IMG/VR virus record: IMGVR_UViG_3300009130_000005
Span: 52,467 to 116,466 of that record
DNA length: 64,000 nucleotides
Direction: 5' to 3' (one strand)
From: a virus
Shown here: positions 5,186-38,413 of the stretch, one piece after another
Position numbering within the stretch: position 1 is the stretch's first letter
Layout of the letters: each line of letters starts with the position of its first letter
Notes under the pieces: model-generated
Database searches by the model: none
Told to the model about the DNA's origin: nothing
What the model saw: only the letters and a program-made list of their open reading frames with translations
Position numbers and translations under genes: made by a program

Positions 5186-5432
5186 ATCATAAATATATAC
5201 ACAATGAAAGACGAAAAAGACAGATTATATGAGTTCAGAGTATGCTACAATGAAGGAGCATATCACTCAGCGGTAAACAGTTATCACTATTATCAAGCCT
5301 ATAACGCTTATGATGCATTACATTTTCATTGCAAAATGATGGAAAGGCGAAATATTGACTGTCAAATAATTTCAGTTGAAAGAAAATGTCCTTGGAGAAA
5401 CAACTGGGTAGACGAAAGTGCAGTTATCCACA

Positions 5433-5984
5433 ATGAGCATTAAAATTATAGAGGGTAATCTTTTAGATTTCCCGCCATATTGCAAAATTGACCCTAATAA
5501 ATATTTAGGAATAAATAATATTGCTCATTCTTGTAATACTAGGAATATTATGGGAGGAGGAATTGCTTTGCAAATAAAGAACAGGTATCCCCAAGCGTAT
5601 GAAGCGGATACCGAGGCTTACAATAAAGAGTACGACAAAAATGGTCAGTACATTAATTGGTTAGGTAAATATTCAAAAGTCGAGATTGAAAGCAAATTTC
5701 TTCCGAACAACAAAGGAAGAATTTACAATCTATATACTCAAGCTAGTGTGGGAAGAGATAAAAGACAGGTCAGCTACGAAGTATTTTGGAGAGCATTAAA
5801 AAATATGCAAGAAGATTTGCTCTTTATTCAGCATGAAACAGGAGAACCTCAAGTATTAGGTTTACCTTACGGAATTTCCTGTGGACTTGCAGGAGGTAGT
5901 TGGAAAATAATAAAAGCAATTATTGAAGATATTTTTATTGATTGTTTAGTAAAATGTTACATAGTTAAATTTGAATATGCATAA
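5433..5984 (+). CDS. Macrodomain protein (Poa1p/TARG1/DarG-macro-like ADP-ribose hydrolase)
   Basis: IIEGNLLD, HSCN..MGGGIALQI, YNLYTQ and PYGISCGLAGGSW motifs. Confidence 0.88.
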   Translation: MSIKIIEGNLLDFPPYCKIDPNKYLGINNIAHSCNTRNIMGGGIALQIKNRYPQAYEADTEAYNKEYDKNGQYINWLGKYSKVEIESKFLPNNKGRIYNLYTQASVGRDKRQVSYEVFWRALKNMQEDLLFIQHETGEPQVLGLPYGISCGLAGGSWKIIKAIIEDIFIDCLVKCYIVKFEYA

Positions 5985-35976: not shown

Positions 35977-36729
35977 ATGAATAGACTAAACCTAAACATC
36001 TGCGGTGGCGAACATACTAAAGTGGGCTTCGATGAAGTCTGTGCAGTAGAGACTCCGCAAGCTACTGAAACTTGGCGACCAATCAGCCATAGCTACCTCA
36101 TCGACAGGGTTCGCACCCATCTTGATGACAATGGCTACGAGATTGTCGCTGAAAACCACAACCTCGCTCGTTTCGGGCAACGCTACTTTGGATTGTTCCA
36201 AGTAAACAACAAGGACAGAGAGCAAGGCGATAGAGGCACTATCCTCGGACTTCGCAATGCTCACGACAAGTGCTTTCCTGCAGGACTTTGTGCAGGTGAC
36301 GCTCCTTTCGTTTGCGACAACCTTGTTTTTCACAATGAGATTGTCCTTGCTCGTAGGCATACCAAGAACATTATGACTGACCTTCCGCAAGTCATCGCTC
36401 GTACCATCGGCAAGTTGTCGGGTATGTGGAACACTCAAGACAAGCGGATTGAGTCCTACAAGGACTATGATGTCACCAATGCTCAAGCAAATGACCTTGT
36501 CATCCGTGCTTACCAAGCAGGAGCAATCAGCAAGGCAAAGATTGCTGATGTCGTTGAGCAATGGGAAACTCCCGAACACCCCGAATTCAAGGATAGGAAC
36601 ATGAACTCCTTGTACAATGGGTTTACGGCAGTTCTCCGTGGCGGTGTCATGCAGTTGCCAAAGCGTTCTGACGCTCTGCACTCTGTTCTTGACTCTGAAG
36701 TCGGACTGACTCTCGCAACCAAATCTTAA
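35977..36729 (+). CDS. DUF932-family protein
   Basis: TPQATETWRPISH, LGLRNAHDK, FVCDNL, RRHT and LYNGFT motifs. Confidence 0.8.
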   Translation: MNRLNLNICGGEHTKVGFDEVCAVETPQATETWRPISHSYLIDRVRTHLDDNGYEIVAENHNLARFGQRYFGLFQVNNKDREQGDRGTILGLRNAHDKCFPAGLCAGDAPFVCDNLVFHNEIVLARRHTKNIMTDLPQVIARTIGKLSGMWNTQDKRIESYKDYDVTNAQANDLVIRAYQAGAISKAKIADVVEQWETPEHPEFKDRNMNSLYNGFTAVLRGGVMQLPKRSDALHSVLDSEVGLTLATKS

Positions 36730-36753
36730 TCATAAACCATAGGAATAACTGAT

Positions 36754-36996
36754 ATGAAGCATAACAACCTCTCATCTGTTCTCAATAACCTCAAAGGGCG
36801 ATTCGTTTCGGTTCTTGTCAAGGATGGTGCAAATCGCACTTCCTATTCGGCAAAGCTGAAGAGTCACAACTCTGAGGTGGTAACCTTCGTTGATACTAAC
36901 GAAAGCAAGGGGCGAGTCTTTCGCAAGGTTCGCAGGTCTGCGGTGCTTGGGCTGAAAAGCGGTAAGCATTCGTTCCGTAGGACGAAAGCCCTGTAA
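36754..36996 (+). CDS. Small basic hypothetical protein
   Basis: ORF with AGGA ribosome-binding site. Confidence 0.6.
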   Translation: MKHNNLSSVLNNLKGRFVSVLVKDGANRTSYSAKLKSHNSEVVTFVDTNESKGRVFRKVRRSAVLGLKSGKHSFRRTKAL

Positions 36997-37065
36997 AGGG
37001 CAAATAGGCAAATAGCCGACCAAATAGTCCCAAGGGCGCAAGCCCTTGGGGCTTAGTGGTTTACG

Positions 37066-37092
37066 GAAATCGCCCAGCGATTTTCATGCCAA
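37066..37092 (-). repeat. Composite element copy 4 with sigma54-like box
   Basis: Reverse complement reads TTGGCATGAAAATCGCTGGGCGATTTC. Confidence 0.9.
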
Positions 37093-37111
37093 AGTTTTTT
37101 TGAGAAAAGGC

Positions 37112-37139
37112 TTGACTTATGGCTGACTTCTGTCATAAT
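37112..37139 (+). promoter_or_regulatory. Sigma70 promoter for the ncRNA locus
   Basis: TTGACT-N16-CATAAT with extended TG; no ATG follows. Confidence 0.75.
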
Positions 37140-37169
37140 TGTATTCAGTTCTTTTGATAATCAAGTTGT

Positions 37170-37295
37170 GGGCTTGTAGCTTAGTCTGGTCTAGAGCCTT
37201 GTCCTCCTTCATCGTGAAATTCTAGATAAATTAGCGAACGGAGTAATTACCCGTGGAGCAAACAAGAGGCGGGGGTTCAAATCCCTCCAAGCCCT
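37170..37295 (+). ncRNA. tRNA-like RNA with a 57-nt structured insert in place of the anticodon loop
   Basis: GGGCTTG/CAAGCCC acceptor stem, TAGCTTAGTCTGGTCTAGAGC D-arm, TTGT/ACAA stem, GGGGGTTCAAATCCCTC T-arm; no encoded CCA. Confidence 0.8.
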
Positions 37296-37329
37296 GCTCT
37301 TTCAGTAGATGCAAACGCATTGAACAACG

Positions 37330-37520
37330 AGGCGTCAGTACACGCCTACAACCCTTCGGGGAGAGAGAAAGAGGTACAACACACAACACTTTGGGCATAC
37401 AACGGACAAGGCTATGGCGAATGAGTTATATCTTGCCAAGGATAGGAGGCGAAAGCCGTTTGAACTAGCAGTAAGAATAGCAACAAGTCGGTGGGATGCG
37501 AGTGGTTGACCAATGCCCAA
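37330..37520 (+). ncRNA. Putative structured ncRNA(s)
   Basis: AGGCGT/ACGCCT hairpin, CCC-TTCG-GGG, GGC-GAAA-GCC and a TTGGGCAT/ATGCCCAA closing stem. Confidence 0.55.
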
Positions 37521-37574
37521 TCTTTTTCAAAAAAAACCCTTGACAAAAACACATAATCTGTCATACTTATAATC

Positions 37575-38413
37575 ATGAATAACACGGAATCACAATTAGC
37601 TTCATTTGAAAATTTGGAATTCAATCAACACCCTCGCTTTGCTGAAGGCACGGCTATTCAAGCGAGACTCAAGTTTGGGTCGAGAGACCAATTTGAGATT
37701 TCAGTCGTCCAAAACATTGGAAGTGGCACAGGCTTATATGGTCACGAGGATGACAACACTTACGAAGTCGCAATGTGGTTCGATGGAAGAAACACCATGC
37801 TTCCCTTATCTCTTTACGACGATGTTCTCGCAGGACAATCTCCAAGCGACATCACTCGCCTAATGCATCAAGCACATCTCAACGATTTTGCTTGGGTTAC
37901 CCTTCTTCACTCTTTGCGAGACGAACATCGCAAGGAAATGGAGCTTGACAACTAACCTTAACTCTGTCATTATATATGAATTACTCAACCATAGAAGGTT
38001 GCATAAGACAATCAACACAAAACAAAATTATGGATACACAAAACAACCAATATATAGTTCTCAAGAATGGAGAACCAATGAACATCAAAGGAACGCTTGA
38101 GCAAATTACTCATCATGTACGCTTGCTAGAGCAAGGACTCAATCGACACCTCCAACACTCACCCTATACTATCGGCAAAGCCGATGCAAACTAATTACAA
38201 ACAAAAAAAGGTATAACTATGAACGAATTCATAAATGCGGTAGATAAAATTGTAACGGCTCAACTTGGACTAAGCGTCCATGACTTAGAGGACTTTGCTT
38301 TTTGCGATTACTATGACGAAACTTTTGACCCCGATGGTTACGACTATCAAAATGCAGTCGAATCCTGTGCGGAAGATTTTCTCGCTGAAGTTGGGAATCT
38401 CTTTGTGATGTAG
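37575..38413 (+). other. Small hypothetical CDSs (37575, 37976, 38219)
   Basis: Leaderless ORFs after promoters at about 37540 and 37944. Confidence 0.65.

What the first reader, a model, noticed from the sequence alone, without database searches (positions are those of the whole stretch)
37170..37295. tRNA-shaped RNA whose anticodon loop is replaced by a 57-nt four-way-junction domain
Seen: intact acceptor, D and T arms, but 37204-37260 sits where the 7-nt loop should be. It folds as a CTCC/GGAG stem enclosing three hairpins: TTCA-TCG-TGAA, CTAG-ATAAA-TTAG and ACGG-AGTAATTAC-CCGT. It has its own sigma70 promoter (37112) and no encoded CCA, and no anticodon can be assigned. Established: 57 nt is too short for a group I or II intron. 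Inference: a new tRNA-mimic ncRNA (decoy for anticodon nucleases or synthetases, or a Y-RNA-like scaffold), or a tRNA with an unusual protein-spliced intron.
Basis: partly seen in the sequence, partly recalled or inferred. Interest (0 to 1): 0.8.

Follow-up and report, generated by a model that had tools for sequence, protein, structure and literature searches.

The report
Phage tRNA-shaped RNA fused to conserved domain
A marine phage carries a gene shaped like a tRNA whose anticodon loop is replaced by two hairpins with self-pairing loops, fused to a highly conserved RNA domain; the two together look like an undescribed, widespread phage RNA that cannot read codons.

Summary
Window 37170-37295 matches Rfam tRNA (43.7 bits, cut-off 29), with about 52 extra bases in the anticodon loop. 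It has a sigma70-type promoter and no encoded CCA.

- **Conservation:** homologues keep the insert, and all tRNA stems covary.
- **Fold:** It has a CUCC/GGAG stem and two hairpins. H1 has a UCUAGA loop and H2 has a GUAAUUAC loop.
- **Self-pairing loops:** loop palindromes persist through compensating changes. Examples are ACUAGU, CCUAGG, ACAUGU, UGAUCA and UAAUUA. This suggests RNA-RNA kissing.
- **Fused 3' domain:** directly after the discriminator lies an approximately 80-nt four-way junction (37296-37374). Its 26-base core occurs in 57 IMG/VR contigs and 4 MAG contigs. A tRNA-like body lies immediately upstream in 48 of 52 distinct units.
- **Not a known family:** nothing matches in Rfam 15 beyond tRNA, or in 50,697 phage records.
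- **Not an intron:** no consistent anticodon can be assigned, no splicing enzymes were found, and contigs from RNA libraries carry the insert.

The function is unknown. My best reading is a processed, non-decoding, tRNA-scaffolded phage ncRNA that self-associates.

The parts
37112..37139 (+). Sigma70-type promoter: -35 TTGACT 37112-37117, 16-nt spacer, TG 37131-37132, -10 CATAAT 37134-37139
   Evidence: 10 of 12 positions, TG present. The same TTGAC..TGTCATAAT lies at the same place in most related units aligned.
37147..37169 (+). Inferred 5' leader (AGUUCUUUUGAUAAUCAAGUUGU). The start is inferred from the -10 position and has not been mapped.
   Evidence: Sequence. GTTCTTTTGATA..TTGT is conserved in relatives. 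Removal by RNase P is inferred.
37170..37295 (+). tRNA-like body with the insert: acceptor 37170-37176/37288-37294, D arm 37179-37197, 'anticodon' stem 37198-37202/37262-37266, T arm 37271-37287, discriminator U37295. No CCA is encoded.
   Evidence: Rfam tRNA 43.7 bits. All four stems covary in 5 family-A sequences.
37204..37258 (+). Insert domain, a three-way junction closed by P0 (CUCC 37204-37207 with GGAG 37255-37258). C37203 and CAA 37259-37261 are unpaired at its base.
   Evidence: P0 is invariant in the 5 sequences, and one pair longer in L102.
37212..37237 (+). Hairpin H1: stem UCGU 37212-37215 with GCGA 37234-37237; 18-nt loop holding the palindrome UCUAGA at 37221-37226
   Evidence: 100% paired with 2 compensatory pairs. 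Equivalent hairpins with covarying stems and N-CUAG-N' loops occur in other families.
37238..37254 (+). Hairpin H2: stem ACGG 37238-37241 with CCGU 37251-37254; 9-nt loop AGUAAUUAC holding the palindrome GUAAUUAC at 37243-37250
   Evidence: Stem kept, with G-U changes in L090. The loop is UGAUCA or UUGAUCAA in relatives and UAAUUA in the window's clade.
37296..37374 (+). Conserved 3' four-way-junction domain. P1 is 37297-37303 with 37367-37373. J1/2 is GUAG 37305-37308. P2 is 37308-37321. J2/3 is GAACAACGA 37322-37330. P3 is 37331-37346. J3/4 is UACAA 37347-37351. P4 is 37352-37361. J4/1 is AGAG 37362-37365.
   Evidence: Model R1 hits window 37294-37380 at 104.9 bits. In 45 distinct sequences, 7 of 8 P1 pairs and 4 of 5 P2 pairs have both-sided changes.
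37375..37539 (+). Spacer up to the next promoter (37540-37567). No intrinsic terminator was found on the + strand. Contigs from RNA libraries cover it. It may belong to the same primary transcript.
   Evidence: promoter found, no + strand terminator. (X17 piece 37317-37603, X20 piece 37364-37514).

Best explanation
The element is the 5' module of a bipartite, non-coding, non-decoding phage RNA.

**Shown**
- A host-type promoter precedes a tRNA-shaped body. Its acceptor, D, 'anticodon' and T stems are kept by covariation.
- A three-way junction replaces the 7-nt anticodon loop. It has stem P0 and hairpins H1 and H2, and their loops carry self-complementary hexamers or octamers.
- Two bases after the discriminator begins a conserved four-way-junction domain of about 80 nt with invariant junction strands.
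- The unit is single-copy in this phage. It recurs in many uncultured aquatic phages, with very different tRNA-like bodies and inserts but the same 3' domain.

**Inferred**
- The tRNA shape lets host RNase P cut the 5' leader, and perhaps lets RNase Z cut at 37295/37296. It also gives the RNA tRNA-like stability, like a natural tRNA scaffold.
- The two palindromic loops mediate loop-loop (kissing) pairing between copies, giving dimers or larger assemblies.
- The 3' domain is the effector part, binding a ligand or protein or acting catalytically.
- The RNA acts early in infection. What it acts on is unknown.
For: **tRNA fold**
- Rfam tRNA scores 43.7 bits against a cut-off of 29.
- In 5 family-A sequences 99.4% of cells are paired and 10 pairs change on both sides. 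0 of 500 shuffles reach these values.

**Conservation of the insert**
- Identity to the window element is 90% in L014/L016 and 76% in L037. The insert pattern finds 6 viral stretches.

**H1 and H2**
- The H1 stem in family A has 2 compensatory pairs.
- Across families the H1 stems differ: GCAG/CUGC, CCAAG/CUUGG, GUGG/CCAC, CUUCAUC/GGUGAAG, UCCC/GGGA, CCAC/GUGG and UCGU/GCGA. The H2 stems differ likewise: GCGA/UCGU, CCAA/UUGG, CAAC/GUUG and ACGG/CCGU.

**Palindromic loops**
- Palindromes are kept through compensating changes. Examples are UCUAGA, ACUAGU, CCUAGG, GCUAGC, ACAUGU, and UGAUCA versus UAAUUA.
- I took 25 representatives less than 75% alike. In them, 9 of 22 predicted insert hairpin loops of at least 6 nt hold a 6-nt palindrome. 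Shuffled loops give a mean of 1.9, and 0 of 2000 shuffles reach 9.

**3' domain**
- Its 26-base core occurs in 57 viral stretches and 4 MAG contigs.
- Model R1 finds 63 matches in 70 sources, 45 of them distinct. 96.7% of cells are paired against 81.9% when shuffled. P1 has 7 of 8 pairs, and P2 has 4 of 5 pairs, with both-sided changes.

**Fusion of the two parts**
- A T arm and acceptor lie directly upstream in 48 of 52 distinct units.

**Non-decoding**
- ARAGORN's 'anticodons' differ among orthologues: Ala(agc) versus Ile(gat) in family A, and Ile, Val, Lys, Gly, Thr and Ala in family B.
- G3:U70 occurs in 1 of 44 bodies. The discriminator is U in 27, A in 16 and G in 1.

**Presence in RNA libraries**
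- A 151-nt contig of an oligo-dT RNA library joins the 3' part of an L037-like insert to window 37272-37372.
- A 220-nt metatranscriptome contig carries about 128 nt of an L031-like tRNA-like body plus window 37294-37366.
Against: - The function is not shown by any result.
- Kissing is inferred only from palindromes and their compensating changes. Related sequences share ancestry, and some distant members have no palindromic loop. L127, L145 and L154 have none, and L088/L089 have CGAUCA.
- The MFE-based test depends on predicted loops.
- The single-sequence fold is no more stable than shuffles (z -1.17).
- J2/3, P3 and J3/4 of the 3' domain were the search pattern, so their invariance is partly ascertainment.
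- The RNA evidence comes from assembled contigs of relatives at low depth (2-4.6). DNA carry-over is not excluded, and contigs cannot show ends.
- In L102 a family-A body is followed by only a truncated 3' domain, so the two parts are separable.
- RNase P and RNase Z processing is untested.
Confidence: 0.55

Rival explanations
1. tRNA decoy or sponge. The abundant tRNA-shaped RNA titrates host enzymes that recognise tRNA shape, such as anticodon nucleases of anti-phage systems, tRNA-modifying toxins, or processing enzymes. The altered anticodon region traps them or resists cleavage.
For: - The L-shape determinants are kept. U8 is present in 38 of 44 bodies, a D stem with a GG loop in 38 of 44, and the T loop in all bodies found.
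- Identity elements are not kept. This fits recognition by shape.
- H2 in family B is a 7-nt loop, CUGAUCA, that looks like an anticodon loop.
- The RNA has a strong early-type promoter among small accessory ORFs.
- Phage tRNAs that counter tRNA-cleaving defences are discussed in reviews that appeared in the listing (listing only, not read).
Against: - This does not explain why the 3' domain is the most conserved part.
- It does not explain why the loops are palindromic.
- No defence system or target is known for these uncultured phages.
- The insert modules differ widely between lineages.
Confidence: 0.2
2. Processing handle. The functional RNA is the 3' domain alone. The tRNA-like body only recruits RNase Z (and RNase P) to give the domain a precise 5' end, as with the tRNA-like units upstream of herpesvirus MHV68 miRNAs (recalled). 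Alternatively, the 3' domain is a self-cleaving ribozyme that cuts at its own 5' edge.
For: - The 3' domain starts a fixed 2 nt after the discriminator in nearly all units.
- It is more conserved than the body.
- It has about 22 invariant junction bases, as catalytic or ligand-binding cores do.
- In L115, L118 and L151 it occurs with no T arm upstream.
Against: - The insert modules H1 and H2 are themselves conserved and covary. A mere handle would not need that.
- Contigs from RNA libraries bridge the body and the 3' domain without a break.
- No known ribozyme family matches 37000-37500, even at E up to 10.
Confidence: 0.15
3. A functional tRNA with an unusual short intron, removed by a protein endonuclease and a ligase.
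For: - ARAGORN in intron mode accepts it as a tRNA with a 52-nt intron.
- The CAA bulge plus the 4-bp CUCC/GGAG helix recalls half of an archaeal bulge-helix-bulge motif (sequence).
- The body resembles Ile- or Ala-type tRNAs (my reading of the sequence).
Against: - The 'anticodon' differs between orthologues.
- Any 7-nt loop that can be formed has C or G, not U, at position 33 (sequence).
- G3:U70, needed for Ala identity (established knowledge), is absent.
- The second bulge and outer helix of a BHB motif are absent.
- No RtcB or tRNA-intron endonuclease lies on the contig. The contig is only 76% complete.
- The insert is more conserved than the exons across different bodies.
- An RNA-library contig retains the insert.
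Confidence: 0.04
4. A DNA-level element. The palindromes (TCTAGA, TGATCA, TAATTA) would be binding or cutting sites for dimeric DNA-binding proteins. Alternatively, the region is a decayed tRNA pseudogene.
For: The motifs are classical 6-bp DNA palindromes.
Against: - The flanks of CTAG vary through all four Watson-Crick combinations rather than being fixed. This pattern fits pairing, not protein contact.
- The palindromes sit in loops of hairpins whose stems covary.
- tRNA stems covary, which a pseudogene would not keep.
- A conserved promoter drives the unit.
Confidence: 0.04

Closest known systems
Intron-bearing tRNA genes (bacterial group I introns in anticodon loops; archaeal bulge-helix-bulge introns)
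   Same: A tRNA gene interrupted in the anticodon loop. ARAGORN's intron mode accepts it.
   Different: - At 52-58 nt, the insert is far below group I size (established knowledge). There is no group I hit in Rfam.
- There is no complete BHB motif and no consistent anticodon.
- The insert is conserved across unrelated bodies.
- No splicing enzymes lie on the contig.
tmRNA (SsrA)
   Same: A tRNA-like acceptor and T arm, with a large functional insertion where the anticodon arm would be.
   Different: - ARAGORN finds no tmRNA in the window.
- G3:U70 is absent.
- The D stem and 'anticodon' stem are intact.
- There is no tag reading frame or pseudoknots.
- The 3' end is not CCA but a fused structured domain.
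Phage T4 stable RNA species 1 (rnaC), next to the T4 tRNA cluster
   Same: A phage-encoded stable RNA of unknown function beside tRNA genes. It has a canonical T arm (CCGGGTTCGAATCCCGG) and a long non-tRNA body. In L125/L128 the present RNA also sits directly after an ordinary tRNA gene.
   Different: Model R1 of the 3' domain finds nothing in the T4 locus L162. I saw no H1 or H2 modules in the sequence.
Viral or cellular tRNA-like units used as processing signals (MHV68 tRNA-miRNA units; MALAT1 mascRNA), recalled and not tested
   Same: A non-aminoacylated tRNA-like fold joined to another functional RNA. Cleavage by tRNA enzymes defines the ends.
   Different: Those are eukaryotic systems with different partners. 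Here the tRNA-like part carries conserved modules of its own, and contigs from RNA libraries show the two parts still joined.
Engineered 'tRNA scaffold' for recombinant RNA (Ponchon and Dardel), recalled; only reviews were listed
   Same: The same design: a foreign structured RNA replaces the anticodon loop of a tRNA, so the chimera is processed and stable.
   Different: This one is natural, phage-encoded and fused to a second domain.
Self-associating RNAs: HIV-1 dimerisation loop and phi29 pRNA (both recalled); ROOL, GOLLD and OLE RNA-only complexes (listing and start of abstract)
   Same: Hairpin loops with self-complementary hexamers. ROOL and GOLLD are also linked to phages and lie near tRNA genes (passages of PMC5737381).
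   Different: There is no sequence or Rfam relation. Multimerisation here is only inferred.

Membership tests
tRNA (Rfam RF00005) | Cloverleaf match above the gathering score | tested here: met
   43.7 bits against 29, covering model positions 1-71.
tRNA (decoding) | 7-nt anticodon loop with U33 and an anticodon conserved among orthologues | tested here: not met
   The loop is replaced by a structured insert, 58 nt where 6 loop positions belong. ARAGORN calls differ among orthologues. Any spliced loop would have C33 or G33.
tRNA (decoding) | CCA 3' end and aminoacylation | not testable with these tools
   CCA is not encoded; GCU follows and runs into helix P1. Whether CCA is added after cleavage is unknown.
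tRNA-Ala (ARAGORN's call) | G3:U70 identity pair (established knowledge) | tested here: not met
   The window has G3:C70. G3:U70 is present in 1 of 44 bodies.
Group I intron in a tRNA | A conserved P3-P9 core of roughly 200 nt or more | tested here: not met
   The insert is 52-58 nt. No Intron_gpI match was found at gathering score or at E up to 10.
Archaeal-type BHB intron | Two 3-nt bulges separated by a 4-bp helix, and a splicing endonuclease | tested here: not met
   Only one bulge (CAA) and the 4-bp helix are present. The far side is a junction. PF01974 is absent from the contig, and the control rang in 4 archaea.
tmRNA | tRNA-Ala-like domain with G3:U70, a tag ORF and pseudoknots | tested here: not met
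   ARAGORN finds no tmRNA. There is no Rfam tmRNA hit. G3:C70 is present instead.
Known small self-cleaving ribozymes (hammerhead, twister, twister-sister, pistol, hatchet, HDV-like) | Match to the family covariance model | tested here: not met
   Nothing at E up to 10 in 37000-37500, other than tRNA and two chance snoRNA rows. Nothing at gathering score in 7 related loci.
Bacterial Y RNA (YrlA) | tRNA-like module inside a Ro-binding stem formed by the 5' and 3' ends | tested here: not met
   No Rfam match. The topology differs: here the ends lie at the acceptor stem.
New bipartite family defined here (tRNA-like body plus 3' four-way junction) | 3' domain with P1-P4 and junctions GUAG / GAACAACGA / UACAA / AGAG, starting 2 nt after the discriminator | tested here: met
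   Window 37294-37380 scores 104.9 bits with model R1. Helices covary.

The most novel reading that the evidence does not exclude
This would be a new class of phage RNA. A tRNA scaffold displays two self-complementary loops, and it is fused to a new catalytic or ligand-binding four-way-junction core. The RNA would assemble by kissing loops into RNA-only dimers or larger complexes, a small counterpart of ROOL and GOLLD. It would act early in infection. The 3' domain could be a new self-cleaving ribozyme or a new aptamer.
Probability: 0.3. Interest if true: 0.85.

Novelty: new variant of a known kind. Interest (0 to 1): 0.7.

Why it matters
If this holds, it adds a widespread, well-supported structured RNA family to the short list of phage non-coding RNAs.

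- **Natural scaffold.** It would be a natural counterpart of the engineered tRNA scaffold.
- **A clear assay.** Loop-loop pairing can be tested directly by native gels, compensatory loop mutants and cryo-EM.
- **A new core.** The 3' domain has about 22 invariant junction bases flanked by covarying helices. This is the signature of ribozymes and riboswitch aptamers, so it is a candidate for a new catalytic or ligand-binding fold.
- **A mix-and-match pattern.** The same 3' domain occurs with very different tRNA-like bodies and inserts. One P2 insertion is identical in units whose bodies differ. This points to modular exchange between phages.
- **Annotation.** Such genes should not be annotated as intron-bearing tRNAs or suppressor tRNAs, as ARAGORN's intron mode does here.

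Tried and rejected
- **Exact D-arm pattern.** The 22-nt pattern found nothing in viral contigs.
- **blastn against 50,697 phage records.** A 3-kb stretch around the element gave no match. The 96-nt 3' domain gave only pieces of 30 nt or less, with E of 0.07 or more. No cultured phage was therefore found by blastn; no covariance-model search of that collection was possible.
- **Nearest cultured relatives by protein.** These are distant. The large terminase is about 25% identical to Clostridioides and Bacillus phages. The GP88-like protein is about 46-48% identical to Pelagibacter, Xanthomonas and Stenotrophomonas phages.
- **MAFFT plus RNAalifold on 43 3'-domain sequences.** This returned only P3, because P4 and P1' were misaligned. 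I replaced it with an anchor-based parse and a covariance-model alignment.
- **Neighbouring genes.** In 52 units, no protein family follows the RNA across distant lineages. Pfam and PHROGs give no function for the flanking small ORFs.
- **T4 Rnl1 (PF09511).** No hit, but the control rang nowhere, so this says nothing.
- **RNA runs.** X18 gave no laid contig. None of the four RNA runs covered 37056-37270 of this particular variant. This is no evidence of absence.
- **Ideas considered and dropped.**
  - A leader triple helix on P1: the distant P1 types are not polypurine.
  - H1 or H2 loops pairing with the 3' domain or with the 16S 3' end: the complementarity is not kept in the UAAUUA variants.
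  - A mini-tmRNA stop-codon mimic: the UAA is UAC in L125, L160 and L161.
  - A hammerhead-like core: CUGUAGA is not CUGAUGA, and the domain is a four-way junction.
- **Literature.** Seven answered full-text searches listed no paper describing such an RNA. Supplements, for example the motif drawings of PMC5737381, are closed and could hold a related motif.
Full report
**1. What the window is**

The window is the 3' 64 kb of a 116,466-bp IMG/VR virus record that is about 76% complete. Its G+C content is 37%. It encodes a T4-type large terminase, an ATP-dependent DNA ligase, UvdE and a GP88-family protein. It also carries three ordinary tRNA genes, Thr-UGU, Leu-UAA and Arg-UCU.

No cultured phage is close. 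blastn of 3 kb around the element finds nothing in 50,697 phage records. The terminase is about 25% identical to Clostridioides and Bacillus phages. The stretch 36700-37700 is held at half or more of its sampled words by 11 runs, most of them labelled marine, seawater or plankton metagenomes.

**2. The observation**

Rfam's tRNA model matches 37170-37295(+) over its whole length. The score is 43.7 bits against a gathering score of 29. 58 nt stand where 6 loop positions belong. ARAGORN misses the element in default mode. In intron mode it reports 'tRNA-Ala(agc), intron 52 nt'.

It is TTGACT at 37112, a 16-nt spacer, TG, then CATAAT ending at 37139, matching 10 of 12 positions. No CCA is encoded. 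The single sequence does not fold better than shuffles (z -1.17). The case therefore rests on homologues.

**3. Homologues of the element itself**

I fetched loci around relatives of two flanking proteins. These gave full-length copies of the element at 90% identity (L014/L016) and 76% identity (L037). A pattern from the insert added L101-L103.

Five distinct family-A sequences align almost without gaps. On this alignment the acceptor, D, 'anticodon' and T stems each show pairs changed on both sides.

TTCA/TGAA and CTAG/TTAG never covary, and each loses a pair in L090. A competing stem is paired in all five sequences. It is UCGU 37212-37215 with GCGA 37234-37237, and two of its pairs are compensatory: U-A to C-G and G-C to A-U.

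The insert is therefore a three-way junction. It has stem P0, hairpin H1 with an 18-nt loop that holds UCUAGA, and hairpin H2 with a 9-nt loop that holds GUAAUUAC.

**4. A second family and shared modules**

ARAGORN's intron mode was run on the 100 loci held at that point. It flagged further 'intron tRNAs' at the equivalent place in related phages, with inserts of 34-53 nt. Their tRNA-like bodies differ; L031 even has a long variable arm. Their inserts share a different conserved sequence, which I call family B.

Both families have the same plan.
- **H1:** the stem covaries. Observed stems are GCAG/CUGC, CCAAG/CUUGG, GUGG/CCAC, CUUCAUC/GGUGAAG, UCCC/GGGA and CCAC/GUGG. The loop of 13-18 nt reads about (A/U)AU(A/U)-CUAG-(A/U)UAA.
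- **H2:** the stem covaries (GCGA/UCGU, CCAA/UUGG, CAAC/GUUG). The loop is mostly the 7-nt YUGAUCA.

The hexamers in both loops are self-complementary, and they stay so when they change.
- The H1 hexamer occurs as UCUAGA, ACUAGU, CCUAGG and GCUAGC, which are all four Watson-Crick flank types. It is ACAUGU in L030 and L129.
- The H2 hexamer is UGAUCA in most units. It is UAAUUA in the window's clade, where G to A and C to U change together. It is UUGAUCAA in L090.
- More distant members carry other palindromes in insert loops, such as UGUACA, UAGCUA, GCUAGC and GGUACC.

I tested this on 25 representatives less than 75% alike. Of 22 predicted insert hairpin loops of at least 6 nt, 9 hold a 6-nt palindrome. 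Shuffled loops give a mean of 1.9, and 0 of 2000 shuffles reach 9.

There are exceptions. L088/L089 have CGAUCA. L127, L145 and L154 have no palindromic loop hexamer.

I read this as selection for loop-loop pairing between copies. That is an inference.

**5. The element is half of a larger conserved RNA**

I aligned each unit with its flanks. Four parts are shared by families A and B:
- the promoter;
- a leader, GTTCTTTTGATA..TTGT;
- the tRNA-like body;
- about 80 nt directly after the discriminator, which is the best-conserved part.

A 26-base pattern from this 3' part finds 57 stretches in IMG/VR. It also finds 4 contigs in the GTDB species genomes, all of them short MAG contigs. In the loci then held, this gave 84 matches and 52 distinct units.

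In 48 of the 52 units a T arm and a 7-bp acceptor lie directly upstream. In 41 units the T loop is 42-48 nt before the anchor. In 3 units it lies further away because of an insertion in P2. In 4 units my first regular-expression hit fell inside P2, and one search recovered the T arm. L140 has an atypical T loop. L115, L118 and L151 have none.

The bodies number 44 distinct sequences of 103-224 nt. Two of them, L096 and L124, were given wrong 5' ends by my script. U8 is present in 38 of 44, and a D stem with a GG loop in 38 of 44. The discriminator is U in 27, A in 16 and G in 1. G3:U70 is present in only 1.

**6. The 3' domain**

I parsed the units by anchors. I then aligned them to a covariance model built from 12 seeds. 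The result is a four-way junction:
- P1, 8 bp;
- junction (G/A)UAG;
- P2, usually closed by a GNRA-type loop, and carrying insertions of roughly 40-55 nt in L090, L114 and L109;
- junction YGAACAACGA;
- P3, GGCGU with ACGCC, with a loop of 6-9 nt;
- junction UACAA;
- P4, 2-6 C-G pairs with a tetraloop;
- junction (G)AGAG;
- the 3' strand of P1.

Model R1 finds 63 matches in 70 sources, 45 of them distinct. 96.7% of cells are paired, against 81.9% in shuffles and at most 60.7% when the partners are slid. P1 has 7 of 8 pairs with both-sided changes, and P2 has 4 of 5. P1 types include CUCUUUCU/AGAAAGAG, UUUCCU/AGGAAA, CUUACACU/AGUGUAAG, CUGAUUUU/AAAAUCAG and CAUACACU/AGUGUAUG.

P3 and the junctions next to it were the search pattern, so their invariance is partly ascertainment.

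In the window the domain is 37296-37374, and R1 scores 37294-37380 at 104.9 bits. The T4 tRNA region has no match. Only 13 of 80 GP88-anchored loci have the domain within the DNA held. The 116-kb contig has a single copy. The RNA is therefore accessory and patchily distributed.

**7. It is not a known family**

Rfam 15 gives nothing but tRNA, both at gathering score in the window and at E up to 10 in 37000-37500. In seven related loci it gives only tRNA and manA RNA. The membership tests for tmRNA, YrlA, group I introns and the small ribozymes therefore fail.

Seven answered full-text searches listed no description of such an RNA. Supplementary files could not be read.

**8. Intron or not**

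The evidence against an intron is as follows.
- ARAGORN's anticodon differs among orthologues.
- Any 7-nt loop left after excision would have C or G at position 33.
- Ala identity needs G3:U70, which is absent.
- The insert is more conserved than the surrounding 'exons', and it sits in unrelated bodies.
- The contig has no RtcB and no tRNA-intron endonuclease, and both controls rang. The contig is incomplete.
- Four RNA-library runs were laid on the region. A 151-nt contig of an oligo-dT library carries the 3' part of an L037-like insert joined to 37272-37372. A 220-nt metatranscriptome contig carries about 128 nt of an L031-like body joined to 37294-37366. No joint was reported.

These are contigs of relatives at depth 2-4.6. 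DNA carry-over cannot be excluded, and contigs cannot show ends. I count them as a weak hint that the unspliced, uncleaved RNA exists.

**9. How it most likely works**

Shown:
- a promoter;
- a tRNA fold kept by selection;
- a structured insert with self-complementary loops;
- a fused, conserved 3' junction domain;
- a wide but patchy distribution in uncultured aquatic phages.

Inferred:
- Host RNAP transcribes the unit early.
- RNase P removes the leader at 37170.
- The tRNA shape gives stability, and perhaps allows an RNase Z cut at 37295/37296.
- H1 and H2 pair with the same loops of other copies.
- The 3' domain is the effector.

I put 0.55 on this package. I am much more confident (about 0.8) in its descriptive core, namely a non-decoding, conserved, bipartite ncRNA.

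The rivals are:
- a decoy for tRNA-targeting enzymes, 0.2;
- a mere processing handle, or a self-cleaving 3' domain, 0.15;
- an intron-bearing tRNA, 0.04;
- a DNA-level element or a pseudogene, 0.04.

**10. Comparison with what is known**

It works like the engineered tRNA scaffold, and loosely like tmRNA, in that a functional RNA stands in place of the anticodon arm. It also recalls viral tRNA-like units that are joined to other small RNAs. The nearest phage precedent is T4 species 1 RNA (rnaC), which has a canonical T arm and a long body next to the tRNA cluster, and whose function I recall to be unknown. The new RNA is a member of none of these families.

**11. Verdict**

The feature is real. 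Its function is unknown. I rate it a new variant of a known kind (phage or viral tRNA-like ncRNA), with interest 0.7.

Noticed in passing
L027 786-995; L030 11-220; L031 36-245; L032 2500-2704: manA RNA (RF01745) scores 71-77 bits in four related phage loci, several kb from the tRNA-like unit. No manA match was found in the window itself.
   Followed up: no
L102 (minus strand), about 5250-5750: This is a tandem arrangement. First comes a variant tRNA-like body without a CUAG loop, plus a full 3' domain. Next comes a family-A body followed by only the first 16 nt or so of the 3' domain. Then comes a small tRNA-like RNA ending in CCA, then a terminator-like hairpin.
   Followed up: partly
L090 10878-11015 and L114 908-1047 (also L109 11532-11656): Helix P2 of the 3' domain carries an insertion of roughly 40-55 nt. 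The insertion is identical in L090 (family-A body) and L114 (family-B body). This suggests that modules are exchanged between units.
   Followed up: partly
window 37375-37539: This is the spacer after the 3' domain. Contigs from RNA libraries cover 37317-37603 and 37364-37514. Read by eye, it holds a possible 31-codon ORF, ATG 37414 to TGA 37507-37509. Parts of it (AACTAGCAG..) recur in relatives. I did not analyse it.
   Followed up: no
L014, L022, L088, L089, L114, downstream of the 3' domain: A further conserved non-coding stretch (..AGTAC..GCCT..TAGG.., ending GGCTCTCAATTCACTT) follows the unit in several relatives. L002, L012, L030 and L111 have a different conserved stretch (TAGCGGAAGTAAT..GAATCCATGAATGAAAAA). 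These may be further small RNAs.
   Followed up: no
L125 and L128, just upstream of the unit: In these distant phages an ordinary tRNA gene with anticodon UCU ends about 10-12 nt before the tRNA-like body. The unit is therefore part of a tRNA array there.
   Followed up: no
L115 about 560-710: Here the 3' domain has no tRNA-like body upstream. Instead a hairpin whose loop holds UUCUAGAUUAA, the H1-type module, precedes it.
   Followed up: no
L162 1409-1547 (minus strand; phage T4 rnaC): T4 'species 1' stable RNA has a canonical T arm (CCGGGTTCGAATCCCGG) near its 3' end and a long non-tRNA body. It has no match to the 3' domain model.
   Followed up: partly
window 37540-37567: A second promoter of the same type: TTGACA, 16 nt, TG, CATACT, matching 10 of 12 positions. 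It precedes the 126-aa ORF 37575-37955, which has no Pfam or PHROG match. Relatives of this ORF lie near the RNA in 21 of 52 units, at varying distances.
   Followed up: partly
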